64,000 bases of DNA, from positions 2,818 to 66,817 of the forward strand of contig JBDRIT010000251.1 of assembly GCA_043815665.1 (NCBI GenBank), in the 5' to 3' direction. This document shows positions 5,491-61,274 of this stretch, one piece after another (position 1 is the first letter of the stretch; each line of letters starts with the position of its first letter). The position numbers and the translations under genes were made by a program. Below the pieces are notes generated by a model. The model was not told the DNA's origin and did no database searches. It saw only the letters and a program-made list of their open reading frames with translations. The stretch is from Pseudomonadota bacterium (lineage in GTDB: Bacteria > Myxococcota_A > UBA9042 > CAIXZC01).

Positions 5491-5569
5491 GGGGCGGCCG
5501 CCATCCATTGGTGGCGTGCTGCCTGAGATGAACCGAGCGTGACTGGCTGCCCGCAACTGAGGTGTCGCC

Positions 5570-41920: not shown

Positions 41921-41923
41921 CTC

Positions 41924-46037: not shown

Positions 46038-46397
46038 TCAACCCTGCAAGAGCGTGGTTTTTACCTTCCAGAGGACCGGCATCAACTTGGCGAGGACCCA
46101 GCCGAGGGCGCGCAGGGCCGGTCCGTCCAGGGGCAGGGAGCGCCCACGGCGGATCGCGTGCACCGCGACGCCGCGCACATCGGAGACCGGGACGGGCGGA
46201 TCTTCCGACGTGCAGCCGTCACCCCGGGTCGTCACGAACCCCTCGCTGACCCGGAGCACGCGGTGCAGGGCGACGTCATCTCCCCGGGGGACCAGGACGA
46301 TCTCGCCGACCCGCGGCAGGCGCCGGGGCAGGGGACGGATCATCACCGGGGTGCCGTCCGGGAGGAAGGGGCGCATGCTCCCACCGCGAGCGATCAT
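46038..46397 (-). CDS. Sec11/SipW-type (S26B, Ser-His) signal-peptidase-like protein, 119 aa. Last gene of the peptide-modification cassette.
   Basis: Box B GGSMRPFLPDG contains the catalytic Ser. Box D GEIVLV…DDVALHRVLRV has His where bacterial type-I signal peptidases have Lys, the same pattern as Sec11 (…PIVHRVLR). ATG 46397 follows immediately after the radical SAM stop. The first 86 codons of the 205-codon ORF are read-through. Confidence 0.65.
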   Translation of the reverse strand: MIARGGSMRPFLPDGTPVMIRPLPRRLPRVGEIVLVPRGDDVALHRVLRVSEGFVTTRGDGCTSEDPPVPVSDVRGVAVHAIRRGRSLPLDGPALRALGWVLAKLMPVLWKVKTTLLQG

Positions 46398-47422: not shown

Positions 47423-48222
47423 GTCAACCTCCGGAAGAGCGCCCGATCCAGATCCTTGAGGGAGACGTCCATCATCCGACAGGGGACCTCGGCGACGATC
47501 TTTATGAGGCGGTCCATCAGCAGGGCAGAGAGGGTGGGGGAGCCGGGGAAGAGGACGGCGTTGCGGATCGCCAGGCGGAGGGCTTCGGCGACGGGCAGGG
47601 CGGGTCCCAGGGTGGTCCTCCCGCCTCGACGGAGGAACAGGAGGCCACCCAGGGGGAGGGTCCCCGTCCCCGTAGCGTTGACCCCCCCGGCGCGCCAGAG
47701 GCCGTCGTCACCGGGCACCAGCGTGGTGAGGTCGTCCGTGATCTTCCTGTCGGGGTCGAGCCGGTTGACGACGGTGCTCTTTCCTGTCGCGTGGGGCGCA
47801 GGGAAGGTCCAGGCGCGGCCGCTCTGCGCCGATGTGGACGCGTGGAGGACCACGCCGAGACCCTCCTCCAGCAGGGCGGCGACCCCGGTCGCAGCCAGGG
47901 TCAGGGTCAGCTGGTCCATCATCTCGCCCGGCCGCAGCGAGGGATCCAGTGTCAGTCCACATCCTCCGGAGTCGATGTACGCGACGGCACCTCGCGCCTG
48001 GAACGACAATCGCCCCCGCTCCTCTACGAATCTCGGTTCGCTCGACGCGGGCTCCGAGGGACCGATCACCACGTCGAGGATGCGATGGACGCGGCGCGGC
48101 CACGGGTCGTATCGAAGCGTCTTGGGAGGCGCCGCCGCCCGGACGAGCTTGTCCAGCCGGATGGGATCCAATGCGGGATCGAAGTGGGCTTCGAAGCTGA
48201 CCGGGCCGAAGGCGAGGTTCAT
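47407..48222 (-). CDS. HPr kinase C-terminal-domain-related P-loop protein (HprK-related kinase of RiPP-type cassettes).
   Basis: GVVLHASTSAQSGRAWTFPAPHATGKSTVVNRL matches the HprK C-domain core (…LHAS…G…GxSGxGKST). The start is set at ATG 48222 (MNLAFGPVSFEAHF…). The upstream 53 codons of the long ORF overlap the precursor ORF in another frame. Confidence 0.65.
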   Translation of the reverse strand: MNLAFGPVSFEAHFDPALDPIRLDKLVRAAAPPKTLRYDPWPRRVHRILDVVIGPSEPASSEPRFVEERGRLSFQARGAVAYIDSGGCGLTLDPSLRPGEMMDQLTLTLAATGVAALLEEGLGVVLHASTSAQSGRAWTFPAPHATGKSTVVNRLDPDRKITDDLTTLVPGDDGLWRAGGVNATGTGTLPLGGLLFLRRGGRTTLGPALPVAEALRLAIRNAVLFPGSPTLSALLMDRLIKIVAEVPCRMMDVSLKDLDRALFRRLTCPTT

Positions 48223-48265: not shown

Positions 48266-48415
48266 TCAGCCAGTGGGGGTCTGCCAGCCGCAGCCCCCGC
48301 CGCTGAGCGCCTGGAACAAGCATCCCGACTGGAGGACGTTCTTCTCGAAGCCCTCGCGGACCTCGACCACCGGCTGCACATAGGCCTTCTTCATCTGCTT
48401 GGCGTCATTCATCAT
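48266..48415 (-). CDS. Putative RiPP precursor peptide (49 aa): MMNDAKQMKKAYVQPVVEVREGFEKNVLQSGCLFQALSGGGCGWQTPTG.
   Basis: A perfect AGGAGG lies 8 nt upstream of ATGATG (minus strand). The peptide has a charged leader-like N-half and a Gly/Cys/Ser/Thr-containing C-half. It sits directly upstream of the kinase-like, rSAM/SPASM and peptidase genes on the same strand, with a 43-nt spacer to the next gene. Confidence 0.55.
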   Translation of the reverse strand: MMNDAKQMKKAYVQPVVEVREGFEKNVLQSGCLFQALSGGGCGWQTPTG

Positions 48416-48471
48416 GGAGTGACCTCCTACGTGGGGACAGTGTATCGAACCATCCCCGGGTGTCAATCGAC

Positions 48472-51400
48472 TCAGCGGACCAGCACCAGGTAACCTGCCC
48501 CGTTGGTCCCGACCATCATGTCCGGGTGTCCGTCGCCGGTGAAGTCACTGAGCGGGGCGATACGGAGGCCGCCGAAGTCCAGGTTGCCGGGCTCGAAGGG
48601 ATCCTCGATGGTCAGATCCAGCTCCTGGAAGCTGCCCATACCGTGGATCCCCGGGAGGTTGTGCCGGACATAGACGGAGCCGAAGAAGGAGAACCCGTTG
48701 AAGTCGCCGTACACCAGGTCTCCCGAGCACTCGGGCTGGATCGGTGAGTCGTCGAAGTTTCCGAGGAGCCCGATGGACTGGAAGTTGCCCTGGATGATGG
48801 TCCCCGCAGAGCCGACCCAGGCGCTCCCCGCAGCCGTGACCGCGCCGATCGTCAAGGTGGTCCCGATGGCTCCGCCGATCGCGTCCCCGCGGAAGAGATA
48901 GATCGACAGGCCGTTGGAGAGGGCCGCCTGCAAGTGGGCGCCGATCACCTCGGGGATCCCGTCACAGTCCAGGTCCTCGCCGAGGATCTGTCCGAAGAAC
49001 CAGTCCGCCGCCGCCAGGCTGCCCTGGGGGCGCAGCCGCACCGCTGCGGCGTCCTCGCTCCCGCTCCCGTCCAGGGTCGACGAGAGAGAGATCGCAGCGG
49101 TGCTGACCATCGCCCGTCCCCGGACGACGAAGGCTGCGGATGGCCCCGTGTACTGGCTGATGACGATGTCGTCGTACTGGGTCCCCTCGCCGTCCCCGTC
49201 CGGGAGGACGTTGCCGACCCCGCTGGCGCTGATGCCGAACCAGTCGTTGGCGGTGCCGCCGACCTGGCTGATCTTGAGGATCAGGGAGGCCGCCTGGTCC
49301 CCGGCGTCCTCGAGGTCGATCTCCAGGGGCGCGACGCCCCAGTTGGCGTTGCCGGGCACGACGTAGACCGTGTTCTTCTGGGGCGCGGCGACGACGATGT
49401 CGTCGATGGGGATCTGACCGTTCAGATCGCCATTGAAGTTGCCGGCGCCGGCGATGGGGACGAAGTTGACCCAGAGGAGCCCGGTCGTCCCGAAGACCAG
49501 GGAGACCTCCGGCGAGGTGCTGAGCACCCCGGAGGCCTTTCCGAGGTAGATGCGCACCCGCGTCCTGTCGGTGCCGTCGGCGTCCTTGTAGGAGACCACG
49601 GCGACGTCGTCGTAGCCGTCGCCGTTCACGTCCCCCACACCCGCCAGATCCAGGCCGACCTGGCTCTGGACGCCGTCGAAGAGACATTGCGTGAGCGCAT
49701 CCTGCGAGAGATCGATGGACGCGGGCGGATCCTCCCGCCCCTGCATGAGGCAGAAGCCGTTCTCGCCGTAAGCGCCGAGGAGCAGGTCTTCGAGGTCGTC
49801 GCCGTTGATGTCACCGGCGCGCACCGGGGTTGCGTCCATGTTGCCGTCGGTGTAGGAGCCGCGGAGCACCTCGGTGTATTGGAGGCGCACGGCGTTGGTG
49901 GATTTGGAGTTCGCCGTGCTGAACGGGGAGACGTTGCCCACATCGTCGTAGGCCAGCACTCCGAAGTAGAACATCGACGAGGGATCGACGCCCGTGACGA
50001 ATCGGCACGGGTCCGCTGGCGCACGGTTGTCGGGACCGGCGACGACAAAGGCTTCGAGCGCCCCGGGGGTCGCCGGCGCCGGTGGCTCAGCGTTCTGGGT
50101 CAGACCCGAGAGGTCGCAGGCCTGGTCGAAGTTCACGGGGGTGATGGGCGCGGTGGAGAAACGGACCTCGTAGGAGGCCGCAGCACCTCCGGCGTTGCCG
50201 TCGTCGCCGACGGCTGACCACTTGAGGGTCACCGCGGGTCGCCGCGGGTTGACGTCCGCCGCGGGGTTGATGGTCTGGAGGACCACGCCGGCTGGCGGGG
50301 TCACGTCCACGTTGAGGGTCAGGGTCGTCGCTCCGTTGTTCCCGGCCGCATCGGTGGCGGTCGCGGTGAGGGTCCGCTGAGCGGCCTCCCCCAGGGTGAC
50401 GTCGGAGGGCCAGGAGTAGGCGAAGGGCGCTCCGGTCATGGACGTCTCGCCGAGGGTTGTCGGCGGGCCACCCGTGTCGGTGGTCAGAGTCACCTCGCCG
50501 CCAGTGAGGTTGTCGCCGGTGACGTTCACCGCGACGGTGAGCTGGCAGCCACCCGCACCGGGGTTCTTGTCGTTGGCCTGGTTGAGGATGCTCGTGGAGG
50601 GCGTCGGTGCAGTGAAGGCAACCACGGGGAGCGTGAGGTCCACGCTGTAGGACCAGTCACCCGTGGTGTCCCCGGTCTCTGCACCGCCGACGAGGAGTCG
50701 GGCCTCGAAGGCGACGCTGTCCCCGTCATCCAGGGTCAGCGGGAACGCCACGGAGCTGCCTGCGGTGACTGCGAGGGTGGCCTCCACCTGACCGTCCTTG
50801 TACAGCCGCACCTGATCCACCGCACCACAGCCCGTGGTGAAGGTCGCCGTGAGGTCGGTCGCGATGGTCGCACAGCTCTGGCCGGGCGGGTCGCAGTCGG
50901 CCGTGTTGTACCAGCCGGAGGCGGGCGCGTCGATGAAGCTCACCTGGCACGCGGTGAAGGTGAGGGTCAGGTTCGCCGAGAGGACGGAGGTGTTTCCGAC
51001 CCCGTCGACGATCACGACCTGCACCTGTCTGTACTCGATCTCCGCGTCGACCGTCCCGACGGTGATGAGCTCGCTGACGGTGACGAGGGACTCGTCGGGC
51101 AGGGTCCCCGTCTTGGCGGGGACGCCACCGGCGCACCCGGTGAAGGATGCGTCCGGGCATTTGGCCAGCTTGATCGTCCAGCCCGCTGCGCCGGACGCCT
51201 CGAACTCCGTCAGGAACTGGAAGCCCGGGATCGTCAGCGACGCGTCGTCGCCATCGGTGAAGCCGACCGCTGGTGCAGGCTGGTTGAGGGTCGCCGATGG
51301 CGGGCTGCGGTCCACGAAGATGTACTCGGGTGACGTGACGGCAAGCGCCTCGTTGTTCGCGTCGTCCCGGACCCAGCCGCGGAGCTGGTAGGCCCCGTCC

Positions 51401-54400
51401 TGGGCGAGGATGCCGCTGAAGGTGACCTGCCCCTGTGCGTTCGGTGCCCCGGAAGAGAGCTCGACCCAGGTGCCCCCCACGTTCCGCTCCAGGTGGACGT
51501 CGTTCCCGTCCGTGCCGCTGGCCACGAGGTGTGTGTCCGGCGAGGAGCCCTGGATCAGGGGCGAGCTGGCCGGCGCTGTGAACGAGAGCACCGGCACCGC
51601 CGTGTCGACGAAGACCTCGATCCCGTATGGCGTGCTCACGTTGCCGACCTGGTCGATGGCCAGGATCTGGAGGGTGTTCAGCCCTTCGAAGAGTGCCAGC
51701 GCCAGATCCACCTGGGAGCCGGCCATGCTCACCTCCTCGATGAGGATCCCGTTGTCCCAGACCTTCATGGTGCCGGTCTCTGCGCTGGTGAGGGTGACCT
51801 CTGCGATGTACGTCGACGGCGCGGCGTCGACCTCCGCCTGGTTGAGGGTCCCGAGGGGCGGCAGGGTGTCGGATGGGAAGGCCACACCCGAGATCACCGG
51901 GGCGACGATGTCCAGCCAGTAGTGGCGGTCCTGCTTCGTGTAGTTCGGCGTGTTGGTGGAGAGGACCCAGGTCCCCGTGTTGGAGAGGGCCTCGGCGATC
52001 ATTCGATGGTACCCGGACGGGAGCGCCGCGACTTCGGCCGCCGTGAGCTGCACGAACACGCTGCCGCCGCCGTGGTTCACGGACTTGACCACCCGGAACT
52101 TCACCGGGCCGTCAGTGGTCTCACAGAGAGCTGCACCCTGGGCGGCGAGGGTCGGGTGCGCGGAGCAGATCCGCAGGGGCGCCGTCTCCGACGAGAAGAG
52201 TTCCGCCGGCTGGGACTTGGCGTCGACTTTATGGGCGCCGTTCTTCCAGGGGAACATGCACTTCTTCGACCCGTCGACCGGCTTGCAGATGCCCGTGGCG
52301 GAGCAGTCGCCGTTGTCCACGCAGAGATCGAAGGAGACGTAGTCGGAGCCCTCGAGCCTCACCTGAGTGGTCGTGAGGAAGAACTGGACTGCGAAGATCA
52401 AGCTGTCCGTGTTGCCCGCAGCGTCGGAGACCGACACCACGATCTGGTGCACACCCTCCCCGAAAGTCATCTGCGGGAACACGACCTCTCCGGTCTGCCC
52501 GTCGGGGATCCCCTCGCCAAGGATCACCGAGGTCGCCTCGGGAGCGCCGATCTCCGGCGTGATCAGCAGGTCCACAGACTGGCCCGCCTCGAGGCCCTGA
52601 ACCCCCACGATGAGGGTGTACTGGTAGCCCTCGGCAGCGGGGTCCTCATCGAGGCTGGCCGGCATCAACTCAAAGTCCGGCTGCATGAATCCGGTGATCA
52701 CCGGTGCCGTGCGGTCGACGATGACGGTCACGGCGGTCGAGTCTGCAGACTGTCCGGCGAGGTCCTCCACCGAAGCGCCGAGGGTGCACGTGGCGCCGTC
52801 CGCGAGCGCTACGCCTGGCCAGGACACCGCATCTCCAGCGACGGCTCCGGGGATCGTCGTCGGGGCGCCACAGTCCACCGTCAGCGACGCCGCGCTGCCG
52901 TTCTCTGCGTTGGTGGTCACCGCGGTGACCACCAGGCTGCAACCGGGGAGGCCGGCCGCACAGAGGTTCGAGGCCAGGTTGAGGATCGCACCATCCTCGG
53001 GCGCGGTCAGGGCGATGGTCGGGGTGCCGTCCTTGAGGAGCACCGAGCGGGTGCCGGAGTACCCGACCTCCGCGTGGGAGGGATGGATCGCAGAAGCCTG
53101 GATCTTCACGGGGACGCCAGGGGTGAGGCCGTCGAGGGAGAACTGGTAGAGGCCGCCCGGGCCCGCCGTCTGATTCCCGAACTCCGCACCGTCCACGAAG
53201 AGGGTGACCGTCGCGTCCTCGAGGGGGATCGCACCGTCGGAGGAGGTCACGGACAGGGTGACCGGGACCGGCTGGCTCGAGACCACGATGTTCTTGGTGG
53301 GGCTGGTGAAGACGACCTTGGGTGCGTCCACGGCGAAGGAGAAGGTTGTCTGGGCCGGCACCGTGACGTGCCCCGCGGCGTCCGTCACCGTGAGGTCGAT
53401 CGTGTTGGTGCCGGGGGTGATGGTGAGGCCGTCGAAGTTCACTTCACCCGTGTCGGCGTCCGGGAAGAGACAGAGCGCCGCCTCGCCGTTGAAGGAGAGG
53501 CAGACCTCAACGAGATCCGGGTGGGCCTCGCCGGTGACCATGGCGTTGACGGCCACCTGGTTGCCGAGCTGATCCGCGTCGGTGTCCGGACAACTCGTCG
53601 GATCACAGATCGCGCCGTCCTGGGGCGTCAGGACGAAGATCTGTGGCCACAAGGCGTCGAGCTCCAGGGACACCTCGGTGAGGCTGCCCGGGTTCGCCGA
53701 GGCGGCGTTGCCGAAGCCGTCCATCGCGGCCGCAGTGAGGGTGTAGATCCCTTCGTCGAGCAGGGAGAGGTCCTCCATGACGCTGAACCCGAGCAGGGTC
53801 GCCTGGACCTCCGTGGTCCACGCCTCGGCGCCGCCCTGGGTGAGGGACAGGGTCACGATCTGGCCTTTCAGGAAGAGAGTCGCCCCCACGACCGAGAAGG
53901 CCTCCGCCGGGACGATCTCGCCGTCTTCTGGGTTGGTGAGGATCAGGAGGGGCGCGGGGAGGCCCACCGTGAGGGAGATCTCGGGAGACACCACCGGCGG
54001 GGCGTTGTTGTCCCTGGCGCGGCAGATGACCTGGCTCCCCACCAGCGCGGTGTTGATCTGGACATCCATGGTGTACTGCCCGTCCGGGGCCGCCGCGGAC
54101 ACGGTGAACATCCCCCCGTCGCGCCAGAGGGACCCGGACTGGTTCTTCCGGTACTGGACCTGGAGGACCGTCCCTGCGTCGGCGAGGGGCGCGTACACCA
54201 GGAAGGAGGTGTCCATGACGGACAGGGTCCCCGGCACGGTGTCAGCCGCCGCCAGGAGGGTGGCGCCGGACAGGGGTGAGAGGATCATCACGTTGGCCGG
54301 GGCCAGGAGCGAAACGACGTTGACGGACGCGGTCGCCAGGGCTCCGCAGCACGCGTCGGATGCGGCGACGGCGATCTCGTGCAGACCATCCGAGGCCAGG

Positions 54401-55548
54401 GTGATGGTGTCGACGGTGAAGACGCCGCCAGGCGCGGAGGTCACTGCGACCTCCACCCCGTCGATGGTGACCGTGATCTCGTCATCCGGGCCGAGGCCGG
54501 TGGCCAGGCCGTCAAGGACGAGCTGGATGCCGTTCTCCGGAACACCGTCCAGATCGTCGCCCAGGTTGACCGTGGTCGGGGACGGGGACGTGATCTCCAG
54601 GGTCGGGGGCACCGTGTCCAGGGTGTAGTCGAGCGCCGTGGACTCCGTCCGGGACTCGTCGGCGCTGTCGGCGACGTAGGCCGTGACGTTGGTCGCCTGG
54701 CAGTCGAGGTCGTCCACGCTGGCGGCGACGGTGATCTGGAGCTCCGCTTCACCGCCGACCAGGTTCACCTGCTCCGAGGCGCCCGTGTCCGTCTCCAGCC
54801 ATGCCGTGTCGCAGTCGGTTCCGCCGTTGGTGACCGTGAAGGTCGCCTGGAACCCGTCCATGTCCGGATCCCCGTCGACTGACAGACAGCTCTGGTTGCT
54901 CGGGGCCAGGGTTACGCCGCAGCTCCCCGTGTCCACGCAGACGGTCTTCGTGACGGTGATCAGATCCTCGGCAGAGATCACCATCTCGTGGCAATCGGGG
55001 TCCGTCGCGTTGGTGAGATGGACCATCGAGAAGCTGAAGATGTCGCCGGGGAGGTCCTGGGTGGCCACGGTGTTGCCGTCGATGTCCAGGGAGATCGTCG
55101 TCCCTGCCGGGACGTTCAGGGTCGTCACCTGGATGTCGACTTCGAGGGCCGGGGTCAGCGGGTAGAGGTCGTCCGAGGTTTCTTCGTTCTTGACGAGGTC
55201 CACCTGGTCGACGTCGGTCCCGACGCAGCCCGCGACGGGGGTCATGAGGCAGAAGGACAGCTCCGCCGGTGGGGGAGGCGGGACGTCCACGTCTGGCTCC
55301 ACCTCGTCGGGGACATCGGGGACGTCGGGGACGTCAGGGACGTCGGGGACATCGGAGACGTCCGGGACGTCCCCGGTGAACTCGTCCAGGACGTCCGTGA
55401 GGTCGAAGTCCACGACATCAGCGTCCCCCTCGAGATCAACCGAACTGTCCGGGACGTCCGTGATCGGGAGGGGCGGTGAGCTGTCCGGGCAGCCGATGAC
55501 GAGGGTCAGCATCATCGCCAGAACCGCTGCGATCGTGACTCGATTCAT
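48472..55548 (-). CDS. Giant surface lipoprotein (2358 aa). Order of parts: lipoprotein signal, (DVP)n acidic linker, many Ig-like/beta-sandwich segments, C-terminal FG-GAP/VCBS-type beta-propeller repeats.
   Basis: MNRVTIAAVLAMMLTLVIGC is a lipoprotein signal with GGAGG 8 nt upstream. FG-GAP-like motifs GDINGDDLEDLLLGAY, GDVNGDGYDDVAVVSY and FTGDGHPDMMVG lie near the C-terminus. Continuous 7-kb ORF. Confidence 0.8.
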   Translation of the reverse strand: MNRVTIAAVLAMMLTLVIGCPDSSPPLPITDVPDSSVDLEGDADVVDFDLTDVLDEFTGDVPDVSDVPDVPDVPDVPDVPDEVEPDVDVPPPPPAELSFCLMTPVAGCVGTDVDQVDLVKNEETSDDLYPLTPALEVDIQVTTLNVPAGTTISLDIDGNTVATQDLPGDIFSFSMVHLTNATDPDCHEMVISAEDLITVTKTVCVDTGSCGVTLAPSNQSCLSVDGDPDMDGFQATFTVTNGGTDCDTAWLETDTGASEQVNLVGGEAELQITVAASVDDLDCQATNVTAYVADSADESRTESTALDYTLDTVPPTLEITSPSPTTVNLGDDLDGVPENGIQLVLDGLATGLGPDDEITVTIDGVEVAVTSAPGGVFTVDTITLASDGLHEIAVAASDACCGALATASVNVVSLLAPANVMILSPLSGATLLAAADTVPGTLSVMDTSFLVYAPLADAGTVLQVQYRKNQSGSLWRDGGMFTVSAAAPDGQYTMDVQINTALVGSQVICRARDNNAPPVVSPEISLTVGLPAPLLILTNPEDGEIVPAEAFSVVGATLFLKGQIVTLSLTQGGAEAWTTEVQATLLGFSVMEDLSLLDEGIYTLTAAAMDGFGNAASANPGSLTEVSLELDALWPQIFVLTPQDGAICDPTSCPDTDADQLGNQVAVNAMVTGEAHPDLVEVCLSFNGEAALCLFPDADTGEVNFDGLTITPGTNTIDLTVTDAAGHVTVPAQTTFSFAVDAPKVVFTSPTKNIVVSSQPVPVTLSVTSSDGAIPLEDATVTLFVDGAEFGNQTAGPGGLYQFSLDGLTPGVPVKIQASAIHPSHAEVGYSGTRSVLLKDGTPTIALTAPEDGAILNLASNLCAAGLPGCSLVVTAVTTNAENGSAASLTVDCGAPTTIPGAVAGDAVSWPGVALADGATCTLGASVEDLAGQSADSTAVTVIVDRTAPVITGFMQPDFELMPASLDEDPAAEGYQYTLIVGVQGLEAGQSVDLLITPEIGAPEATSVILGEGIPDGQTGEVVFPQMTFGEGVHQIVVSVSDAAGNTDSLIFAVQFFLTTTQVRLEGSDYVSFDLCVDNGDCSATGICKPVDGSKKCMFPWKNGAHKVDAKSQPAELFSSETAPLRICSAHPTLAAQGAALCETTDGPVKFRVVKSVNHGGGSVFVQLTAAEVAALPSGYHRMIAEALSNTGTWVLSTNTPNYTKQDRHYWLDIVAPVISGVAFPSDTLPPLGTLNQAEVDAAPSTYIAEVTLTSAETGTMKVWDNGILIEEVSMAGSQVDLALALFEGLNTLQILAIDQVGNVSTPYGIEVFVDTAVPVLSFTAPASSPLIQGSSPDTHLVASGTDGNDVHLERNVGGTWVELSSGAPNAQGQVTFSGILAQDGAYQLRGWVRDDANNEALAVTSPEYIFVDRSPPSATLNQPAPAVGFTDGDDASLTIPGFQFLTEFEASGAAGWTIKLAKCPDASFTGCAGGVPAKTGTLPDESLVTVSELITVGTVDAEIEYRQVQVVIVDGVGNTSVLSANLTLTFTACQVSFIDAPASGWYNTADCDPPGQSCATIATDLTATFTTGCGAVDQVRLYKDGQVEATLAVTAGSSVAFPLTLDDGDSVAFEARLLVGGAETGDTTGDWSYSVDLTLPVVAFTAPTPSTSILNQANDKNPGAGGCQLTVAVNVTGDNLTGGEVTLTTDTGGPPTTLGETSMTGAPFAYSWPSDVTLGEAAQRTLTATATDAAGNNGATTLTLNVDVTPPAGVVLQTINPAADVNPRRPAVTLKWSAVGDDGNAGGAAASYEVRFSTAPITPVNFDQACDLSGLTQNAEPPAPATPGALEAFVVAGPDNRAPADPCRFVTGVDPSSMFYFGVLAYDDVGNVSPFSTANSKSTNAVRLQYTEVLRGSYTDGNMDATPVRAGDINGDDLEDLLLGAYGENGFCLMQGREDPPASIDLSQDALTQCLFDGVQSQVGLDLAGVGDVNGDGYDDVAVVSYKDADGTDRTRVRIYLGKASGVLSTSPEVSLVFGTTGLLWVNFVPIAGAGNFNGDLNGQIPIDDIVVAAPQKNTVYVVPGNANWGVAPLEIDLEDAGDQAASLILKISQVGGTANDWFGISASGVGNVLPDGDGEGTQYDDIVISQYTGPSAAFVVRGRAMVSTAAISLSSTLDGSGSEDAAAVRLRPQGSLAAADWFFGQILGEDLDCDGIPEVIGAHLQAALSNGLSIYLFRGDAIGGAIGTTLTIGAVTAAGSAWVGSAGTIIQGNFQSIGLLGNFDDSPIQPECSGDLVYGDFNGFSFFGSVYVRHNLPGIHGMGSFQELDLTIEDPFEPGNLDFGGLRIAPLSDFTGDGHPDMMVGTNGAGYLVLVR
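55300..55380 (-). repeat. Short tandem 9-bp repeat (GGACGTCGG / GGACATCGG on the plus strand) encoding a (DVP)n / DVSDVPDVPDVPDVPDVPDE acidic linker.
   Basis: Direct reading: gacatcggg gacgtcggg gacgtcagg gacgtcggg gacatcgga gacgtccgg gacgtcc. Confidence 0.8.
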
Positions 55549-55647: not shown

Positions 55648-55926
55648 TCATTTGACATTCGCCAAGAGGACTCCGCGCGCAGTCAGAGTTCCCAGGAAAT
55701 GATCGACATCCGAAGCGGCGCGTTCATGGGACACCTCGTAGCCCTCGTCGAGCCTGACCACGAGGTCGCGCGCCGTCTCGGCGCCGGCCTCCACGGCCTC
55801 CCAGAGAAAGACCGCCGTCTCGTTCCCAAGGACGATGAGGTCCCCCTCGGGCGCCAGGATGAAGATCTCTTCACCGACGCGTCGGACGCCGACGTTTTCG
55901 GCCTTATGGAATGTGGTCAATGGCAT
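55648..55926 (-). CDS. PqqD-family protein (RiPP recognition element / peptide chaperone), 92 aa.
   Basis: …VGEEIFILAPEGDLIVLGNETAVFLWEAVEAGAETARDLVVRLDEGYEVSHERAASDVDHFLGTLTARGVLL… matches the PqqD pattern (x-then-LN-ETAxxIWxLxDGxxTxxEIxxxLxEEYxV…DVxxFLxxLxxxGLL). Confidence 0.7.
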   Translation of the reverse strand: MPLTTFHKAENVGVRRVGEEIFILAPEGDLIVLGNETAVFLWEAVEAGAETARDLVVRLDEGYEVSHERAASDVDHFLGTLTARGVLLANVK

Positions 55927-55950: not shown

Positions 55951-58900
55951 TCAGTCGAGGTTCACGGACAGATCGTACAGGGTACCGACGGAGCTGTTGT
56001 AGCCCGTCACCCGGATCAGGTAGGTGGACAGGGTGGTCGACGAGTAGCTGAACTCCTCGTCGTCGGAGCTCGACGACGAGCTTGCCACGTAGCCGACGCA
56101 GTTGCCCTGCTTGTAGAGGTAGATGTCCAGGTCCCCGTCCGCGTGGGCGAACTCGATCTTCGTCGTGAGCGTCTGGCCGGCACCGAGCAGCACCGCGTAC
56201 CAGTCCTCGTCACCCCCGAGGCAGATCGCCAGGTCTTTCTTGACGCCCGTGCCGATGGAGACTGCGGTGGTGCAGGTGTTGTTGGGCTCCATCCCTTCGT
56301 CGGTCTTGCAACCGCACTGGAAGTCGGTGCAGTCCTCGTAGACCGCACAGCTCCCGCAGAGCCCGACGCAGCCGTCGGCGCCGCAGACCTTTCCCTCGCA
56401 GGCGGGCTGACAGACGCACAGCCCCTGGACGCAGAGGTCCTGCAGGCCGGCGCATACGCCACAGTCGGCGCCGCAGCCGTCGTCGCCACAGACCTTTCCC
56501 TCGCAGGCGGGCTGGCACACACACAGCCCGTCGACGCAGAGGTCCTGTGGGCCGCCGCATTGTCCGCAGACTCCGTCGCAGCCGTCGGCGCCGCACTCCA
56601 GCCCGTCACAGGCCGGCTGGCAGATGCACTGGCCCTCCACGCAGGCGTCCTGGGGTCCGGTGCATTCTCCGCAGGACCCGCCGCAGCCGTCACCGCCGCA
56701 GGAGATCCCCTCGCAGGCGGGCTGACAGAGACAGGCACCGTCCACGCAGAGATCCTGTGGCCCGAAGCACTCACCGCAGGTGCCGCCGCACCCGTCGTCG
56801 CCGCACTCCGTGCCGGCGCAGGTGCCGATACAGACGCACTGGTCGTCGATGCAGAGGTCCTGGGGGTTCTCACAGTTGCCGCAGGAGAGTCCGCAGCCGT
56901 CGTCACCGCAGGCCTTTTCCTCGCACTGGGGCAGGCAGCAATCCAGGGTCAGGAAGTAGGATCCGAAGTCCTCCTCGGTGAGGCCCTCCACCACCACGTA
57001 GTAGGGTATGCCGGGCAGGGCCTTGAAGGTCACGGCGACGGGCCCGCCAGGGACGCCGGAGTCCCCGAAGCCCACGCACGCCCACTCCGACGCGCAGAAC
57101 TCCTCGAGGGCCGCGAGGCCGCCGTGGAAGACGTGCCCGGAGAGGATCGCCGTGACCACGGTCACCTGGGTCACGGAGACGGCGTACTTGTCGTCCGGAC
57201 CTTCCCACGGCGTCCCGGTGCACCGGTCGTAGCTCTCGAGGGTGCTGGGCTTGTCCGTGGAGTTGCCGCTGATCCCGTCGTAGCACCCCAGCTCCCAGAG
57301 GGTCTCACAGGGGGGCGGGACCTGGACGCACTGGTAGAAGCCGCAGATCTGTCCCGGCGCGCAGTCGCTGTCGTCCACGCAGTCGGGCTCCACAATGAGG
57401 ACCTGGAGGGAGTAGGCGCTCTCTCCACCGGCCTGGGTGGACACCCGGAGCCGATACACGCCTGGGGAGAGGGCCGTCCACGAGAGCGCCATCGTCCCCT
57501 CGCTGCCCACGGCCGAGACGAGGGGATCCCCGCATGAAGGGGGGACCAGGACAAGGGCGAGGCCGGTCTCATCGTCGGCCTGGGTGAGGGTGACCGAGAC
57601 GAGCTGGCCCTCGGTCAACGCGATGGAATACCAGTCCTCGTCCGTGTCGGGGCAGAGCAGGAGTCCCGCATGGTTCCCGAGGCCGATCGGGGAGGCGTCG
57701 AGGCAGGTCTCGTTTGGCTCCCCGCCGGGGTCCTCGGCGCACACCTCGCAGAGCCCCTCGGTGCAGAGCTCGCCGTCGGCGCACGTCCCGCAGATTCCAC
57801 CACAGCCATCATCTCCGCAGGCGGGCCCCTCGGCGCATTGGAGGACGCAGCACCCGATCTCGAGGCTGAACTGGCCGGCCCCGTCCACGGCGGCGCCGTC
57901 CACGACGATGTGGTAGTCGGTGCCCGCGGTCGCGTCGAAGGTCAGCACCTCGTCCACCTCGATGGCCGGTTGATCGACCAGCCCGGCGCAGGCCTGCTCC
58001 GGGGAGCACCAGGTGTCCAGGACCGCGAGCGCTGCGTCGTAGGTCTGGTCGCCCAGGGTCAGGGTGACCCGGGTATCCTTGGGGAGGGTCAGCTTGTAGG
58101 TCTTCTCGGGGCCCTCGTAGAGCACGTCCGTGCAGCTGTCGTAGGCCGTCCAGGCCGTGGACGTGCCCAGGGTACTCCCCATGAGCTGCACCCCGCAGCC
58201 GATGGATGCGGCGAGGGGGCAGGCCGGCTTGAGCACACACTCGCTCTCCTGGCACCAGTAGCCCCCGGCGCAGCCGCCGTGATCCTGGCAGGAGACCGCG
58301 CAGATCCCTCCGGCCTCCTCGCAGCCGTAGGGGTGGCAGGCGAGGAAGGCCCCCGCATCGCAGACGCCGATCCCGTCGCAGACCGCCGCCTCGGTGGCGA
58401 TGCCGTTCTCACAGGTCGGCACGCCGCAGATGACCTCAGCGCCCCACCACGCGCAGGCACCGACCCCGTCACAGACCCCGGTGAGGCCGCAGGTCTCGGG
58501 GGCCTCCTCCTCGCAGTCGTCCTGCGGATCGAGGCCGGCCGCGATGGGACGGCAGCCGCCGGCACCGTCGCAGGTCTGGCACCCGCCGCAATCGCTCTCC
58601 GGGTCGACTCCGTCCACCTGGGGGATGCATCCTCCGTCGCCGTCACAGGTTTCGCAGACGCCGCACCAGGCCTGGGGATCCTCCCCCGCCGGGAGCGGCG
58701 CGCAGGCGCCCTCACCGTTGCAGAGTGAGCAGACGCCGCAGTCTCCGGCGGAGTCCGTCCCCTCGGCCACGGACGTGCACGTTCCGACGAACTCCACGAG
58801 GACACAGGACTCGCAGACGCCGTCACAGGCCGTATCGCAGCAGACGCCGTCCACGCAGAGGCCCGAGAGGCACTGGCCGCTGTCTCCGCAGATCTGGCCA

Positions 58901-60303
58901 TCCTCCAGGCACGCATCGAGGCAGGGCGCGCCGCAGCCGTCGTCCTCCTGGCAGGCCTTGCCGTCGCAGTCCGGCGGGCAGACGCCGTCGTCGCACAGGC
59001 CCAACCAGCTGGACAGGCCGAAGGTCTTCGAGCACTGGCTCCATTCGTACTTGCAGAACCCGTCGACGGTGGTGAAGCAGGGGGCGCCGTTGTCTGGATC
59101 GACGCAGAAGCCCGCCGACCAGCCCCCGTCAGGCGCAGGCTGACCCTCGGGGGTCACCTGCAGGGTCCGGCAGACGGTCCCCGAGTCGCACTCCTCGTCG
59201 GTGGAGCAGGGGGTCGAGCAATAGGGGTTGACCTTGTCCGGCCACTGATGGAAGAGGCAGAGGGGGCCGAAGCAATCCGAGGCGTCGTCGCAGTCCTCGC
59301 CCACGCCGCCGCCGAAGGGGTTGTCGGAGTCGAGGCAGGCCCGCGCCGGGGCGTCGGTCCCGGGGGGGAAGAGATAGCCGCAGTACTCCTTGCCCACGAC
59401 ACAGTCCAGGTCGGTCAGGCAGGCGTCGCCGGAGCCCGCCGTTGGCACGCAGAGCCCCGCGTAGCCGCCGATCTGGCCCGGCAGGACGGGGTCCGGGATC
59501 CCCCAGAGGGTGCAGACCGTGTTGCCGGGGCACTGGTCCCCTGACTCGCACCAGGCGCTGCACATGCCCGGTCCCGTGGGGCCGGCCCCGGCGAGGGGGA
59601 GACAGAACAGAGAGGCGCACTGGTGGCCGGAGTTGATCCCCTGGCAGGATTTTCCGGCGATCTTGCGGTCCAGGATCGGGAGACACAGGCCGGTGGTGTC
59701 GCCCCCCTCAGCGAAGGCTCCCGCGCACACCGTCGCCTGGAGGCCCTGGGCAGTGCAGTCCGCGTCGAGGGAGCACTTCACCGCCGCACCGGCCACGGCC
59801 CCGGGGACGCAGACGTCCAGGTCCAGGGGGCACGCGAAGACCTGCCCCCAGGCGGAGGCAGCGGAAGGGTTGGCGCATGCGCCGGCGATCTCCTGGTCCC
59901 CGGTCCGGCAGAGGACCGTACAGAAGCCGAGGAGGCAGCCCGCGTTGGTGTCACAGTCCGCGTCGGTGGTGCAGGGCTTCCCGACGTCCGTCTCCGGGAG
60001 CTCCACCGCGTCTGGCGGGAGGTCCGGCTGGACGTCGGCGAGATCCGAAGGCAGCTCGAGTTGGACATCCGCGATGTCCGGGGGCAGGTCCGGGGCGACA
60101 TCGGGCGGGACCGTGTCTCCCGCGTCCATGGTGTCCGGCGGGCCATCGACGTCGACGCCATCGGGCGCGCCGCCGTCACCGATCGTGTCTGCGTCCCCCG
60201 GGAGGCCCGTGTCCGCTCCACCGCCATCGCCGCCCGTACAGCCGCCGAGGAGGGCGATGAGCCCGCCCAGAACCAGGAGCCGGACCAACAAACCTTGCCG
60301 CAT
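55951..60303 (-). CDS. Giant Cys-rich lipoprotein (1450 aa) with two pre-peptidase C-terminal (PPC)-like domains and six tandem CxPxCxGKxCGxDGCGGxCGxC modules.
   Basis: MRQGLLVRLLVLGGLIALLGGC is a lipoprotein signal, followed by a proline/acidic linker. PPC-like motifs (…DEDWYSIALTEGQLVSVTL… and …DEDWYAVLLGAGQTLTTKIEFAHADGDLDIYLY…). About 9% Cys. Confidence 0.8.
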   Translation of the reverse strand: MRQGLLVRLLVLGGLIALLGGCTGGDGGGADTGLPGDADTIGDGGAPDGVDVDGPPDTMDAGDTVPPDVAPDLPPDIADVQLELPSDLADVQPDLPPDAVELPETDVGKPCTTDADCDTNAGCLLGFCTVLCRTGDQEIAGACANPSAASAWGQVFACPLDLDVCVPGAVAGAAVKCSLDADCTAQGLQATVCAGAFAEGGDTTGLCLPILDRKIAGKSCQGINSGHQCASLFCLPLAGAGPTGPGMCSAWCESGDQCPGNTVCTLWGIPDPVLPGQIGGYAGLCVPTAGSGDACLTDLDCVVGKEYCGYLFPPGTDAPARACLDSDNPFGGGVGEDCDDASDCFGPLCLFHQWPDKVNPYCSTPCSTDEECDSGTVCRTLQVTPEGQPAPDGGWSAGFCVDPDNGAPCFTTVDGFCKYEWSQCSKTFGLSSWLGLCDDGVCPPDCDGKACQEDDGCGAPCLDACLEDGQICGDSGQCLSGLCVDGVCCDTACDGVCESCVLVEFVGTCTSVAEGTDSAGDCGVCSLCNGEGACAPLPAGEDPQAWCGVCETCDGDGGCIPQVDGVDPESDCGGCQTCDGAGGCRPIAAGLDPQDDCEEEAPETCGLTGVCDGVGACAWWGAEVICGVPTCENGIATEAAVCDGIGVCDAGAFLACHPYGCEEAGGICAVSCQDHGGCAGGYWCQESECVLKPACPLAASIGCGVQLMGSTLGTSTAWTAYDSCTDVLYEGPEKTYKLTLPKDTRVTLTLGDQTYDAALAVLDTWCSPEQACAGLVDQPAIEVDEVLTFDATAGTDYHIVVDGAAVDGAGQFSLEIGCCVLQCAEGPACGDDGCGGICGTCADGELCTEGLCEVCAEDPGGEPNETCLDASPIGLGNHAGLLLCPDTDEDWYSIALTEGQLVSVTLTQADDETGLALVLVPPSCGDPLVSAVGSEGTMALSWTALSPGVYRLRVSTQAGGESAYSLQVLIVEPDCVDDSDCAPGQICGFYQCVQVPPPCETLWELGCYDGISGNSTDKPSTLESYDRCTGTPWEGPDDKYAVSVTQVTVVTAILSGHVFHGGLAALEEFCASEWACVGFGDSGVPGGPVAVTFKALPGIPYYVVVEGLTEEDFGSYFLTLDCCLPQCEEKACGDDGCGLSCGNCENPQDLCIDDQCVCIGTCAGTECGDDGCGGTCGECFGPQDLCVDGACLCQPACEGISCGGDGCGGSCGECTGPQDACVEGQCICQPACDGLECGADGCDGVCGQCGGPQDLCVDGLCVCQPACEGKVCGDDGCGADCGVCAGLQDLCVQGLCVCQPACEGKVCGADGCVGLCGSCAVYEDCTDFQCGCKTDEGMEPNNTCTTAVSIGTGVKKDLAICLGGDEDWYAVLLGAGQTLTTKIEFAHADGDLDIYLYKQGNCVGYVASSSSSSDDEEFSYSSTTLSTYLIRVTGYNSSVGTLYDLSVNLD

Positions 60304-60419: not shown

Positions 60420-61274
60420 CTAGAAGACGACCGAGGCGTATCCGACGAAGTCCTGGGGCTCTCCCTCGGGTATGACGTCCCAGCTGGTCGTGTGGGAGAG
60501 GAGCTCGCCATACTCGGACCCGTTCAGCCGGGCGGCGGTCACCGCGGCGGCAGCGGAGCCGGGGCAGCAGGCGCTCTGACTCGACAGCCCCTCGTCGATG
60601 CAGCCGAGGGGGTTGAGCTCAAGGAGGTTGCCGATGAACCGGCTGTCGTTCTCGTCCTTCGCCCAGCGGAGCGCCGCATGGCCCGTGCCGTTCATGACCT
60701 TTCCGTACCGTGGGCCGTAGTGCGTGAGGTCCGTGGAGCCGACGAAGATCGCGTTCCGCTCGCGGTAGCGCAGGATCTCGGCGAGCTGATCCACCACGTC
60801 CAGGATCACGTCCCGTGGCGGCATGAGCAGGACCACGAGCCTCGCATCCGGCATGAGCTGCTGGATGATCGGGAGGTGGACCTCGATGGTGTTGTCCGGG
60901 GTCCAGAGGATCTCGCTCAGCTCCTTGAAGCGGAAGGCCGAGGCGAGGCTGCGGACGATCTCCTGGTCCAGCTCCAGGATCCCGAGGGGGGTCTCGAAGC
61001 CCTCCCCGATCAGGATCATGGGCCGCTGGTGTGACTGGAGGTGGCCGCCGAAGAGGATCACCGTGTCGGGCTGACTCGATGCGAGGGTTCTCCAGACCTC
61101 ATAGGCGACCGCGCCGCTGTAGATCCAACCGGCGTGGGGAACCACACCCGCAGTGGGTCGCTTCCGCAACTTCTGCGTCGCGGTGGCGTGCACCTCGAAC
61201 TCTGCGAGCTGCGCTTCGATCTTCGATTTGGTTCCAGGGTACCAGGTGCCTGCGAAGGGGGAGTTCCGGAGCAT
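60420..61274 (-). CDS. MEMO1-family protein (AmmeMemoRadiSam system protein B).
   Basis: N-terminal FAGTWYPG signature. His-rich metal-site motifs (…VVPHAGWIYSG…, …LTHYG…). 284 aa. Confidence 0.85.
   Translation of the reverse strand: MLRNSPFAGTWYPGTKSKIEAQLAEFEVHATATQKLRKRPTAGVVPHAGWIYSGAVAYEVWRTLASSQPDTVILFGGHLQSHQRPMILIGEGFETPLGILELDQEIVRSLASAFRFKELSEILWTPDNTIEVHLPIIQQLMPDARLVVLLMPPRDVILDVVDQLAEILRYRERNAIFVGSTDLTHYGPRYGKVMNGTGHAALRWAKDENDSRFIGNLLELNPLGCIDEGLSSQSACCPGSAAAAVTAARLNGSEYGELLSHTTSWDVIPEGEPQDFVGYASVVF

What the first reader, a model, noticed from the sequence alone, without database searches (positions are those of the whole stretch)
55648..55926. PqqD-like RRE protein separated from its presumptive rSAM partner by a 7-kb lipoprotein gene
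The 92-aa protein has the characteristic PqqD/RRE pattern (…LNETAxFLWEAV…GAETARDLVVRLDEGYEV…DVDHFLGTLTARGVLL). Stand-alone PqqD proteins normally sit immediately beside the rSAM enzyme. Here a 2358-aa FG-GAP lipoprotein gene (48472..55548) intervenes on the same strand. Two readings are possible: the lipoprotein gene belongs to the cassette (for example as a surface-displayed partner), or it was inserted into it.
Basis: inference. Interest (0 to 1): 0.55.

Follow-up and report, generated by a model that had tools for sequence, protein, structure and literature searches.

The report
Peptide-modifying cassette enclosing giant lipoprotein gene
The small PqqD-like protein is the leader-binding helper of a radical-SAM peptide-modification cassette, and a 2358-residue surface lipoprotein gene has sat inside that cassette across distantly related bacteria, so the giant protein probably works with the modified peptide.

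Summary
55648..55926(-) encodes a PqqD/RRE protein, and 48472..55548(-) encodes a 2358-aa Ig-like/FG-GAP lipoprotein. A radical SAM/SPASM gene lies downstream at 46394..47422(-).

- a 49-aa candidate precursor peptide (48266..48415), with its own conserved promoter-like site and a YxxPxV leader motif;
- an HPr-kinase-like "ScmC" P-loop protein (47407..48222);
- a small S24/S26-type peptidase (46038..46397).

In distant relatives (rSAM 34-37% identical) with unrelated flanking genes, the giant gene again sits just upstream of the peptide, ScmC, rSAM and peptidase genes. There it is a full-length ortholog, 31-39% identical over about 2350 aa. PqqD lies upstream of it in one such locus (L022) and is absent from another (L019).

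Two other relatives carry a compact cassette with PqqD directly beside ScmC and the rSAM gene, and no giant gene. So PqqD belongs to this rSAM module. The giant gene was recruited into the cassette long ago and has been co-inherited since.

The chemistry and the giant protein's role are inferred, not shown. No curated family reaches its cut-off, and no paper describing the cassette was found. I rate it a new variant of the uncharacterised ScmC/PqqD/rSAM ("SynChlorMet"-like) type of cassette.

The parts
55648..55926 (-). PqqD-family RiPP recognition element (RRE), 92 aa, stand-alone
   Evidence: Pfam PF05402 E=7.6e-12, above its cut-off. AF2 pLDDT 88.3. Best Foldseek matches are lasso B1 RREs bound to leader peptides. 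Homologous along its length to the PqqD of L022 and of the compact cassette L103.
48472..55548 (-). Giant lipoprotein, 2358 aa: signal peptide and lipobox (LVIGC), arrays of Ig-like domains (Big_13, Big_3_3), C-terminal FG-GAP repeats
   Evidence: Full-length collinear orthologs sit in the same cassette position in L001/L011/L014 (69-71% identity), L019 (39% over 2342 aa) and L022 (31% over 2403 aa), with a partial one in L020. 389 columns are invariant across six sequences, including 26 Cys.
48439..48466 (-). Sigma-70-type promoter-like site TTGACA-16-TACACT, followed by AGGAGG, in the 56-nt gap between the giant gene's stop and the peptide gene's start
   Evidence: 10 of 12 consensus matches; 3 such sites found in 15.6 kb against 0.6 expected. 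Five of six -35 bases, the whole -10 hexamer and most of the Shine-Dalgarno are invariant in 7 loci whose proteins have diverged by 30-40%.
48266..48415 (-). Candidate precursor peptide, 49 aa: MMNDAKQMKKAYVQPVVEVREGFEKNVLQSGCLFQALSGGGCGWQTPTG. Conserved leader, variable two-Cys core.
   Evidence: Orthologous small ORFs occupy the same position in every related locus and occur in the compact cassettes. M1, a basic pair, YxxP and two Cys are universal. Differences by codon position are 67/90/142, an excess at third positions. NCBI annotates it as a hypothetical protein.
47407..48222 (-). ScmC-like P-loop protein, 271 aa, related to HPr-kinase-like peptide kinases
   Evidence: Weak NCBIfam ScmC hit. 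Orthologs carry a precomputed Pfam PF27840 ScmC hit. Distant family members hit HprK_rel_A/B, ScmC and PEPCK. H127, K148, D163 and D164 are invariant within the window clade; across all cassette types His, Lys and the first Asp are conserved and the second position is Asp or Glu.
46394..47422 (-). Radical SAM/SPASM enzyme, 342 aa, without an N-terminal RRE
   Evidence: Pfam Radical_SAM residues 26-166 and SPASM 236-296. CxxxCxxC at 29/33/36 plus seven C-terminal Cys; all are conserved in 7 of 7 cassette rSAMs except Cys324 (6 of 7). Best solved relatives are SkfB (1e-13) and PqqE. It overlaps the ScmC gene by 16 nt.
46038..46397 (-). Small S24/S26-type serine peptidase, 119 aa, no transmembrane segment; candidate leader peptidase
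   Evidence: GGSMRPF motif and a conserved HR[VIL] motif. Weak hits to Peptidase_S24 and archaeal-type signal peptidase I; the L020 ortholog is above the Pfam cut-off. It overlaps the rSAM stop by 4 nt. A distant homolog, P0254, is an S24 + ScmC-like fusion.

Best explanation
The PqqD protein is the trans-acting leader-binding subunit (RRE) of a five-part peptide-maturation module. The other four parts lie 7 kb downstream: a 49-aa precursor, an HPr-kinase-like ScmC protein, a radical SAM/SPASM enzyme and a small S24/S26-type peptidase.

Proposed mechanism (inferred, none of it shown):
- PqqD binds the conserved [KR][KR]xYxxPx[VIL] leader and presents the peptide to the rSAM enzyme, which lacks an RRE of its own.
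- The rSAM enzyme installs one or more intramolecular cross-links involving the two invariant core cysteines, most likely Cys-derived thioethers.
- ScmC performs an ATP-dependent step, most likely phosphorylation of the peptide.
- The S24-like peptidase removes the leader.

Shown by comparison: in one deep subfamily of these cassettes, a gene for a roughly 2350-aa Ig-like/FG-GAP lipoprotein lies immediately upstream of the precursor gene and is inherited with the module. PqqD precedes the giant gene in the window clade and in L022.

Inferred from that: the giant protein is a functional partner of the peptide, for example its extracytoplasmic binding partner or carrier.
For: Conservation where flanks differ:
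- The giant-peptide-ScmC-rSAM-S24 order recurs in L022, L019 and L020. These were reached through rSAM homologs only 34-37% identical, and their flanking genes differ completely. L022 also has PqqD upstream of the giant gene.
- The giant proteins are collinear orthologs of nearly constant length, 2343-2358 aa.
- Gene junctions are tight: PqqD and the giant gene overlap by 4 nt in L001, and the giant stop lies 12 nt from the peptide ATG in L020.

PqqD belongs to the rSAM module:
- Compact cassettes L103 (ScmC-PqqD-rSAM-peptide-S24-ABC transporter) and L104 (rSAM-peptide-PqqD-ScmC) place PqqD next to its partners.
- Their peptides share the same leader and two-Cys core design.
- P0051 is a PqqD+rSAM/SPASM fusion.
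- The PqqD model matches lasso B1 RREs solved with their leader peptides. Lasso leaders carry a conserved YxxPxL motif (PMC10368454), and this peptide family has YxxPx[VIL].

The kinase reading of ScmC:
- Conserved His-Lys-Asp-Asp/Glu residues match the catalytic motif reported for lasso-peptide kinases (PMC9266682).
- A B1 RRE accelerates such a kinase (PMC10368454).

Other support:
- The rSAM has a complete SPASM cysteine set, and its best solved relative is the thioether-forming SkfB.
- The peptide gene shows a coding substitution pattern and has a conserved promoter-like site of its own.
Against: - No experiment supports any step, and the chemistry is extrapolated from distant relatives. 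Every NCBIfam rSAM hit is far below its cut-off.
- L019 carries the giant gene and the module but has no PqqD anywhere in 18.8 kb, so PqqD upstream of the giant gene is not universal.
- Compact cassettes work without a giant gene. Giant-type cassettes carry no exporter, so it is unclear how a cytoplasmically matured peptide would reach a lipoprotein outside the cytoplasm.
- The peptide gene has its own promoter-like site, so it need not be co-expressed with the giant gene.
- A crude NJ tree of the rSAMs does not place all giant-bearing cassettes together.
- Only four deep lineages were seen, and strict co-occurrence could not be tested because the metagenome scan was uninformative.
- The ScmC-like structure model was too poor to confirm a kinase fold.
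Confidence: 0.6

Rival explanations
1. The giant lipoprotein gene is a passenger. It landed between PqqD and the rest of a RiPP cassette in an ancestor and persists through linkage, with no functional tie to the peptide.
For: Compact cassettes lack it. The peptide gene has its own promoter-like site right after the giant gene's stop. This genome is full of giant surface-protein genes. Another large lipoprotein gene (55951..60303) is clearly a variable insertion next to PqqD: it is present in L004, L011 and L014 and absent in L001. No exporter or other mechanistic link is encoded.
Against: A 7-kb neutral insert would not be expected to survive as an intact, collinear, constant-length ortholog (31-39% identity, 26 invariant Cys) in lineages whose rSAMs have diverged to 34-37% identity and whose flanking genes have all been replaced. 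Its junctions are operon-like: a 4-nt overlap with PqqD in L001 and a 12-nt gap to the peptide gene in L020.
Confidence: 0.22
2. The giant lipoprotein itself is the substrate. PqqD and the rSAM/SPASM enzyme would modify it before export, as anaerobic sulfatase-maturing enzymes modify whole proteins, and the small ORF would be accessory or regulatory.
For: SPASM enzymes include protein-modifying members (established knowledge). PqqD lies directly upstream of the giant gene and overlaps it in L001. The giant protein has many invariant Cys.
Against: The small peptide, with the same leader and two-Cys design, persists in compact cassettes that have no giant gene. The peptide has the leader/core conservation pattern of a RiPP precursor. 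No YxxPx[LIV] motif is conserved anywhere in the giant orthologs. L019 has the giant gene without PqqD.
Confidence: 0.07
3. The PqqD protein serves some other partner, such as the upstream Memo-like gene or an unlinked rSAM enzyme, and its nearness to this rSAM gene is coincidental.
For: In L001 the Memo gene's stop touches the PqqD start. Seven kb separate PqqD from the rSAM gene. L019 runs the module without a local PqqD.
Against: Memo is not next to PqqD in L022, where a TsaD gene lies upstream. PqqD is adjacent to ScmC and the rSAM gene in L103 and L104, and fused to the rSAM in P0051. The window PqqD aligns along its length with the PqqDs of L103 and L022. No other rSAM/SPASM gene lies in the window or near PqqD in relatives.
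Confidence: 0.05

Closest known systems
SynChlorMet-type cassette (NCBIfam TIGR04248 ScmD, TIGR04249 ScmC, TIGR04250/04251 ScmE/ScmF; Pfam PF27840 ScmC)
   Same: The same trio of a PqqD-family protein, an ScmC-type P-loop protein and a PqqE-like rSAM/SPASM enzyme. All three window proteins give their weak hits to these models. Orthologs carry the precomputed PF27840 hit.
   Different: All scores are far below the curated cut-offs: 18.7 vs 100, 16 vs 125, 84 vs 400. There is one rSAM gene rather than two. This cassette adds an S24-like peptidase, an identifiable precursor family and, uniquely, an embedded 2350-aa lipoprotein gene. The SynChlorMet cassette is itself uncharacterised, and no paper in the library mentions it.
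Lasso-peptide systems with a split B1 RRE and an HPr-kinase-like tailoring kinase (paeninodin PadeK/ThcoK; Bradymonas BsfB1/BsfK)
   Same: The closest solved folds to this PqqD are the B1 RREs TbiB1 and TfuB1. The leader carries YxxPx[VIL], like the lasso YxxPxL motif. The kinase-type His-Lys-Asp-Asp residues are conserved. A B1 RRE is known to assist the kinase.
   Different: No lasso cyclase (asparagine-synthetase-like C) and no B2 cysteine protease appear in any cassette locus. An rSAM/SPASM enzyme and an S24-type peptidase take their place. The core has two Cys and no Gly1...Asp/Glu ring design.
Quinohemoprotein amine dehydrogenase operon (qhpABCDEFG)
   Same: In both, a leader-bearing small polypeptide would be cross-linked at Cys by an rSAM/SPASM enzyme and trimmed by a dedicated serine protease, and its genes sit among the genes of the large extracytoplasmic proteins it would serve. 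The qhp steps are documented in PMC7876137; the steps here are inferred. This is the best precedent for a peptide module embedded next to its structural partner.
   Different: This is an analogy only. No qhp homology was found, and there is no ABC exporter, haem subunit or flavoprotein. The partner here is one giant lipoprotein with no recognised catalytic domain. The core is hypervariable apart from two Cys.
Sactipeptide/ranthipeptide maturases and PqqE/PqqD
   Same: An rSAM/SPASM enzyme with a full auxiliary-cluster Cys set, a Cys-containing core and a stand-alone PqqD, as with PqqE/PqqD. SkfB and PqqE are the best solved sequence relatives.
   Different: Similarity is low (E=1e-13, partial). 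Most sactisynthases carry a fused RRE. None is known to be paired with ScmC, an S24 peptidase or a giant lipoprotein.

Membership tests
PqqD / RiPP recognition element (PF05402) | Match to the family model above its curated cut-off | tested here: met
   45.8 bits vs 23.4, E=7.6e-12, model positions 1-67 of 67
PqqD / RiPP recognition element (PF05402) | Winged-helix fold: an N-terminal beta-sheet followed by three helices | tested here: met
   AF2 pLDDT 88.3, with strands at 4-8, 13-17, 20-24 and 30-33 and helices at 36-46, 52-63 and 67-83. Foldseek top hits are TbiB1, TfuB1 and PqqD, TM 0.70-0.83.
PqqD / RiPP recognition element (PF05402) | Binds the leader of the cognate precursor peptide | not testable with these tools
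   Indirect only: a conserved YxxPx[VIL] leader motif and adjacency or fusion with the module in relatives
Radical SAM / SPASM peptide maturases | CxxxCxxC radical SAM cluster motif plus the C-terminal seven-Cys SPASM motif | tested here: met
   Cys 29/33/36 and Cys 236, 254, 293, 296, 302, 305, 324, conserved across 7 cassette rSAMs (Cys324 in 6 of 7). Pfam Radical_SAM and SPASM are above their cut-offs.
Radical SAM / SPASM peptide maturases | Membership of a curated equivalog (PqqE, MftC, ScmE/F, GeoRSP, sactisynthases and others) | tested here: not met
   The best NCBIfam scores are 110 bits vs a cut-off of 500 (NirJ2) and 109 vs 400 (GeoRSP). None reaches its cut-off.
SynChlorMet cassette | ScmC, ScmD and ScmE/ScmF equivalog scores, with two rSAM/SPASM genes | tested here: not met
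   18.7/100 (ScmD), 16/125 (ScmC), 84/400 (ScmE), 61/400 (ScmF). The window holds only one rSAM/SPASM gene.
HPr-kinase-like peptide kinases | Conserved His-Lys-Asp-Asp catalytic residues with a P-loop | tested here: met
   H127, G147-K148-S149 and D163-D164 are invariant in 11 orthologs. The LH, GK[ST]T and [SG]D[DE] motifs are conserved in all cassette types. The motif is as reported in PMC9266682.
HPr-kinase-like peptide kinases | Family model score (TIGR04352/TIGR04355) or an HPrK/PEPCK-type fold | tested here: inconclusive
   The window protein hits only ScmC, weakly. Distant family members hit HprK_rel_A/B and PEPCK well below their cut-offs. The AF2 model has pLDDT <50 over the P-loop half. 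Foldseek and the PDB profile search found nothing.
S24/S26 serine peptidases (LexA / signal-peptidase fold) | Nucleophile Ser in a G-x-S-M-x-P motif and a downstream general base | tested here: met
   GGSMRPF, with SM conserved (CM in L103), and an invariant HR[VIL] motif in 7 cassette peptidases. A His base is the ER/archaeal signal-peptidase arrangement (my own knowledge).
S24/S26 serine peptidases (LexA / signal-peptidase fold) | Family model above its cut-off | tested here: inconclusive
   The window protein scores 17.3 vs 23.3 (Pfam) and 20.6 vs 51.85 (TIGR02228). The L020 ortholog scores 29.4 vs 23.3, above the cut-off.
Lasso peptide biosynthetic cluster | Lasso cyclase (C) and B2 protease next to the B1 RRE and precursor | tested here: not met
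   No such genes in the cassette in the window or in L001, L019, L020, L022, L103 or L104
Bacterial lipoprotein (the giant protein) | Signal peptide ending in a lipobox Cys | tested here: met
   LVIGC at residues 16-20. The equivalent Cys is invariant in six orthologs: LVTGC, LVAGC, LSAC, LSSC. This was read from the sequence; no dedicated predictor was run.

The most novel reading that the evidence does not exclude
The rSAM-modified peptide is not a free natural product. It would be a dedicated partner of the 2350-aa surface lipoprotein, as a tightly bound subunit, ligand or peptide-derived prosthetic group. That would parallel the rSAM-cross-linked gamma subunit of quinohemoprotein amine dehydrogenase and would define a new class of giant cell-surface proteins that need their own RiPP.
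Probability: 0.3. Interest if true: 0.8.

Novelty: new variant of a known kind. Interest (0 to 1): 0.6.

Why it matters
RiPP-type cassettes are normally read as compact factories for exported peptides. Here the factory appears to be split around a conserved 7-kb gene for a surface protein, and the split has been kept across deep divergence. If the link is functional, it points to peptide modification in the service of a giant envelope protein, for which the quinohemoprotein amine dehydrogenase operon is the main precedent.

The result also gives the catalogued but uncharacterised ScmC/PqqD/rSAM cassette type a concrete candidate precursor family: a [KR][KR]xYxxPx[VIL] leader with a two-Cys core. 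That makes the cassette directly testable by heterologous expression.

For genome mining, it shows that an RRE can lie 7 kb from its enzyme, so rules that require adjacency would miss or truncate such clusters.

Tried and rejected
- The GTDB genome scan with the ScmC alignment found a single locus, from an uncultured Myxococcales bacterium, so it gave no breadth.
None carried cassette genes or matched the full giant protein. The strict co-occurrence test therefore failed for technical reasons.
- tblastn of the ScmC-like protein against plasmids found no match.
- A sigma-54 promoter consensus, sought because of the neighbouring FHA/sigma-54 activator, gave no site in the cassette and fewer hits than chance overall.
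- A search for a conserved YxxPx[LIV] motif in the giant orthologs found none. This argues against the giant protein being an RRE client.
- No PqqD was found in L019 by a profile search of its six-frame translation.
- Literature searches for SynChlorMet/ScmC, SPASM+FG-GAP+PqqD, and HPr kinase+radical SAM+RRE found no description of this cassette. The Haft 2011 paper could not be fetched.
- The NJ tree of cassette rSAMs was too long-branched to say whether the giant gene was recruited once.
- The Memo/AmmeMemoRadiSam link was considered and rejected, because Memo is not adjacent to PqqD outside the window clade.

Full report
**Observation.**
- It matches Pfam PqqD (PF05402) over the whole model at E=7.6e-12, well above the curated cut-off.
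- An AlphaFold2 model built from 14 orthologs is confident (mean pLDDT 88.3).
- Its best matches among solved structures are the lasso-peptide B1 recognition proteins TbiB1 (5v1v, TM 0.83/0.87) and TfuB1 (6jx3), both solved with their leader peptides, followed by a PqqD NMR structure.
- The gene between it and the rSAM gene is real. It encodes 2358 aa from the ATG at 55548, with a signal peptide and lipobox (LVIGC), Ig-like Big_13/Big_3_3 domains and C-terminal FG-GAP repeats.
- The rSAM/SPASM gene is 46394..47422.
- The window holds no second PqqD, rSAM/SPASM, ScmC-like or S24-like gene.

**What else is there.**
- A 49-aa ORF lies at 48266..48415: MMNDAKQMKKAYVQPVVEVREGFEKNVLQSGCLFQALSGGGCGWQTPTG. 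It is preceded by AGGAGG and by a TTGACA-16-TACACT promoter-like site inside the 56-nt gap after the giant gene's stop.
- A 271-aa P-loop protein lies at 47407..48222. Its only family hit is a weak one to SynChlorMet cassette protein ScmC, and its orthologs carry Pfam PF27840 ScmC.
- A 119-aa S24/S26-type peptidase lies at 46038..46397. Its start overlaps the rSAM stop by 4 nt.
- The rSAM enzyme has the CxxxCxxC motif at 29/33/36 and a seven-Cys SPASM set. Its radical SAM domain begins at residue 26, so it has no built-in recognition domain.

**The small ORF is a gene with a precursor-like design.**
- Orthologous ORFs of 48-50 aa occupy the same position in every close relative.
- Pairwise differences fall mostly at third codon positions (67/90/142 for positions 1/2/3). 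The bias is stronger in the N-terminal 32 codons (41/39/82) than in the C-terminal 17 (26/51/60). This pattern fits a conserved leader and a variable core.
- Most of the -35 hexamer (five of six bases), the whole -10 hexamer and most of the ribosome-binding site are invariant in seven loci, although the flanking proteins differ by 30-40%.

**Synteny in close relatives.** Loci found through PqqD and ScmC-like homologs (52-100% identity) all show PqqD, the giant gene, the peptide, ScmC, rSAM and S24 in that order. This alone is weak evidence, because the whole neighbourhood (UvrD, Memo, sigma-54 activator, AhpC, ECF sigma) is syntenic in these organisms. One detail is informative. The 1450-aa Cys-rich PPC lipoprotein gene upstream of PqqD is missing in L001, so that gene is a variable insertion. 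The 2358-aa gene is never missing.

**Synteny in distant relatives, the decisive evidence.** rSAM homologs only 34-37% identical led to loci whose flanking genes are unrelated to those of the window.
- L022 reads TsaD | PqqD, 2353-aa protein, small ORF, ScmC, rSAM, 137-aa S24-like | TPR, LysM.
- L019 reads BamA | 2343-aa protein, 49-aa ORF, ScmC, rSAM, 115-aa S24-like | FAD oxidase.
- L020 reads a large gene cut by the contig end, 53-aa ORF, ScmC, rSAM, S24 peptidase | epimerase.
- The giant proteins are collinear orthologs from end to end: 39% identity over 2342 aa for L019 and 31% over 2403 aa for L022. All have a lipobox, and 389 columns are invariant across six sequences, including 26 cysteines.
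- In L001 the PqqD stop overlaps the giant gene's start. In L020 only 12 nt separate the giant stop from the peptide ATG.
- A neutral 7-kb insertion would not be expected to stay intact, constant in length and fixed in position while every flanking gene was replaced.

**Compact relatives.** Two further rSAM homologs (34% identity) lie in cassettes without a giant gene.
- L103 has ScmC, PqqD, rSAM, a 47-aa ORF, a 123-aa S24-like protein and an ABC transporter.
- L104 has rSAM, a 60-aa ORF, PqqD and ScmC, followed by a 1206-aa C25 peptidase, with an S24-like gene nearby.
- Their small ORFs share the design of the window peptide: a basic pair, YxxPx[LV], then a Gly-rich stretch leading to the first Cys (LG.C in these two), and a second Cys 8-12 residues later.
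- The window PqqD aligns along its length with the PqqDs of L103 and L022.
- Among the rSAM homologs, P0051 carries an N-terminal PqqD domain fused to rSAM/SPASM. Among distant ScmC-like proteins, P0254 is an S24-peptidase/ScmC fusion.
- Together these show that peptide, PqqD, ScmC, rSAM and S24 form one functional module. In the window's subfamily the giant gene was placed between PqqD and the peptide.

**Mechanism: what is inferred.**
- The YxxPx[VIL] motif resembles the YxxPxL motif conserved in lasso-peptide leaders (PMC10368454). The closest solved folds to this PqqD are the lasso B1 proteins solved with such leaders. I therefore infer that PqqD binds the leader and delivers the peptide to the RRE-less rSAM enzyme.
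- The only universally conserved core residues are two Cys. The best solved relatives of the rSAM are the thioether-forming SkfB and PqqE. I therefore infer a Cys-based cross-link.
- ScmC-like proteins keep the His, Lys and Asp-Asp/Glu residues (H127, K148, D163, D164). This is the catalytic motif reported for lasso-peptide kinases (PMC9266682). A B1 RRE accelerates such a kinase in Bradymonas (PMC10368454). I infer an ATP-dependent step, probably phosphorylation.
- The S24-like protein keeps a Ser (Cys in L103) in G-x-S-M and an HR[VIL] motif, and has no transmembrane segment. I infer cytoplasmic removal of the leader.

**The giant protein's role.** This is the weakest step. The protein is an array of Ig-like domains ending in FG-GAP repeats, with no recognised catalytic domain, and it should be lipid-anchored outside the cytoplasm. 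The nearest precedent for a cross-linked small polypeptide encoded among the genes of its large extracytoplasmic partners is the qhp operon. There QhpD (rSAM) cross-links QhpC, QhpE removes its leader, and an ABC exporter delivers it (PMC7876137). The giant-type cassettes here encode no exporter. Compact L103 has one, but no giant gene.

**Points against and open questions.**
- L019 has no PqqD in 18.8 kb.
- The rSAM tree does not resolve whether giant-bearing cassettes form one clade.
- Co-occurrence of the giant family with the module could not be surveyed broadly.
- The ScmC-like fold could not be modelled.
- No sigma-54 promoter was found despite the adjacent FHA/sigma-54 activator.

**Comparison with known systems.**
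- No curated NCBIfam model reaches its cut-off for any of the six proteins, and the peptide has no hit at all.
- The trio PqqD/ScmC/rSAM corresponds to the catalogued but uncharacterised SynChlorMet cassette type. Membership fails on scores and on having one rSAM gene rather than two.
- It works partly like a lasso system (RRE, leader motif, kinase) but has neither the cyclase nor the B2 protease.
- No paper describing it was found.
- NCBI labels the peptide and the ScmC-like protein as hypothetical.

**Verdict.** The pairing of PqqD with the distant rSAM gene is well supported. The giant gene is an old, stably co-inherited member of the cassette rather than a recent insertion. The chemistry and the giant protein's role remain hypotheses. 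I rate it a new variant of a known kind, with interest 0.6.

Noticed in passing
window 2..15438 (+): Three tandem giant ORFs (1769, 1841 and 1474 aa; the first begins at window base 2, so its true start is uncertain) are packed with 22-24 thrombospondin type-3 repeats each. Two also carry MopE-like metal-binding motifs. They coincide with a strong AT-skew block in the composition profile.
   Followed up: partly
window 55951..60303 (-): A 1450-aa Cys-rich lipoprotein with PPC domains lies between Memo and PqqD. It is present in L004, L011 and L014 but absent in L001, where the Memo stop touches the PqqD start. This is a variable insertion, in contrast to the conserved 2358-aa gene.
   Followed up: partly
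window 44640..46037 (+): An FHA-domain sigma-54 activator converges on the cassette; its stop abuts the S24-like gene's stop at 46038. It is conserved in the window clade only. No sigma-54 -24/-12 consensus occurs in the cassette.
   Followed up: partly
window 60420..61274 (-): A Memo-like gene scores as AmmeMemoRadiSam system protein B (196 bits vs a cut-off of 26). No AMMECR1 or dedicated rSAM partner was recognised among the neighbouring genes scanned.
   Followed up: no
P0254 and P0051 (proteins from database searches): Two domain fusions occur among distant homologs. P0254 is an S24/SipW-like peptidase joined to an ScmC-like protein, and P0051 is PqqD joined to rSAM/SPASM. They independently link the cassette's components.
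   Followed up: yes
L104 12819..16439 and L103 7958..14263: The compact ScmC/PqqD/rSAM cassettes also sit next to very large secreted proteins: a 1206-aa C25 peptidase directly after ScmC in L104, and two Ig-like proteins of more than 1350 aa about 3 kb downstream in L103. These are unrelated in sequence to the window's giant protein. This may be a wider tendency, or it may be chance.
   Followed up: partly
window 15460..20715 (-), 37877..39322 (-), 39324..42475 (-): There are more Cys-rich secreted proteins: a 1751-aa protein with Dicty_CTDC repeats and a 481-aa Cys-rich lipoprotein with no Pfam hit. A conserved set of ECF sigma factor, a 288-aa protein and a 577-aa protein with no family hits is syntenic in L011 and L014.
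   Followed up: no
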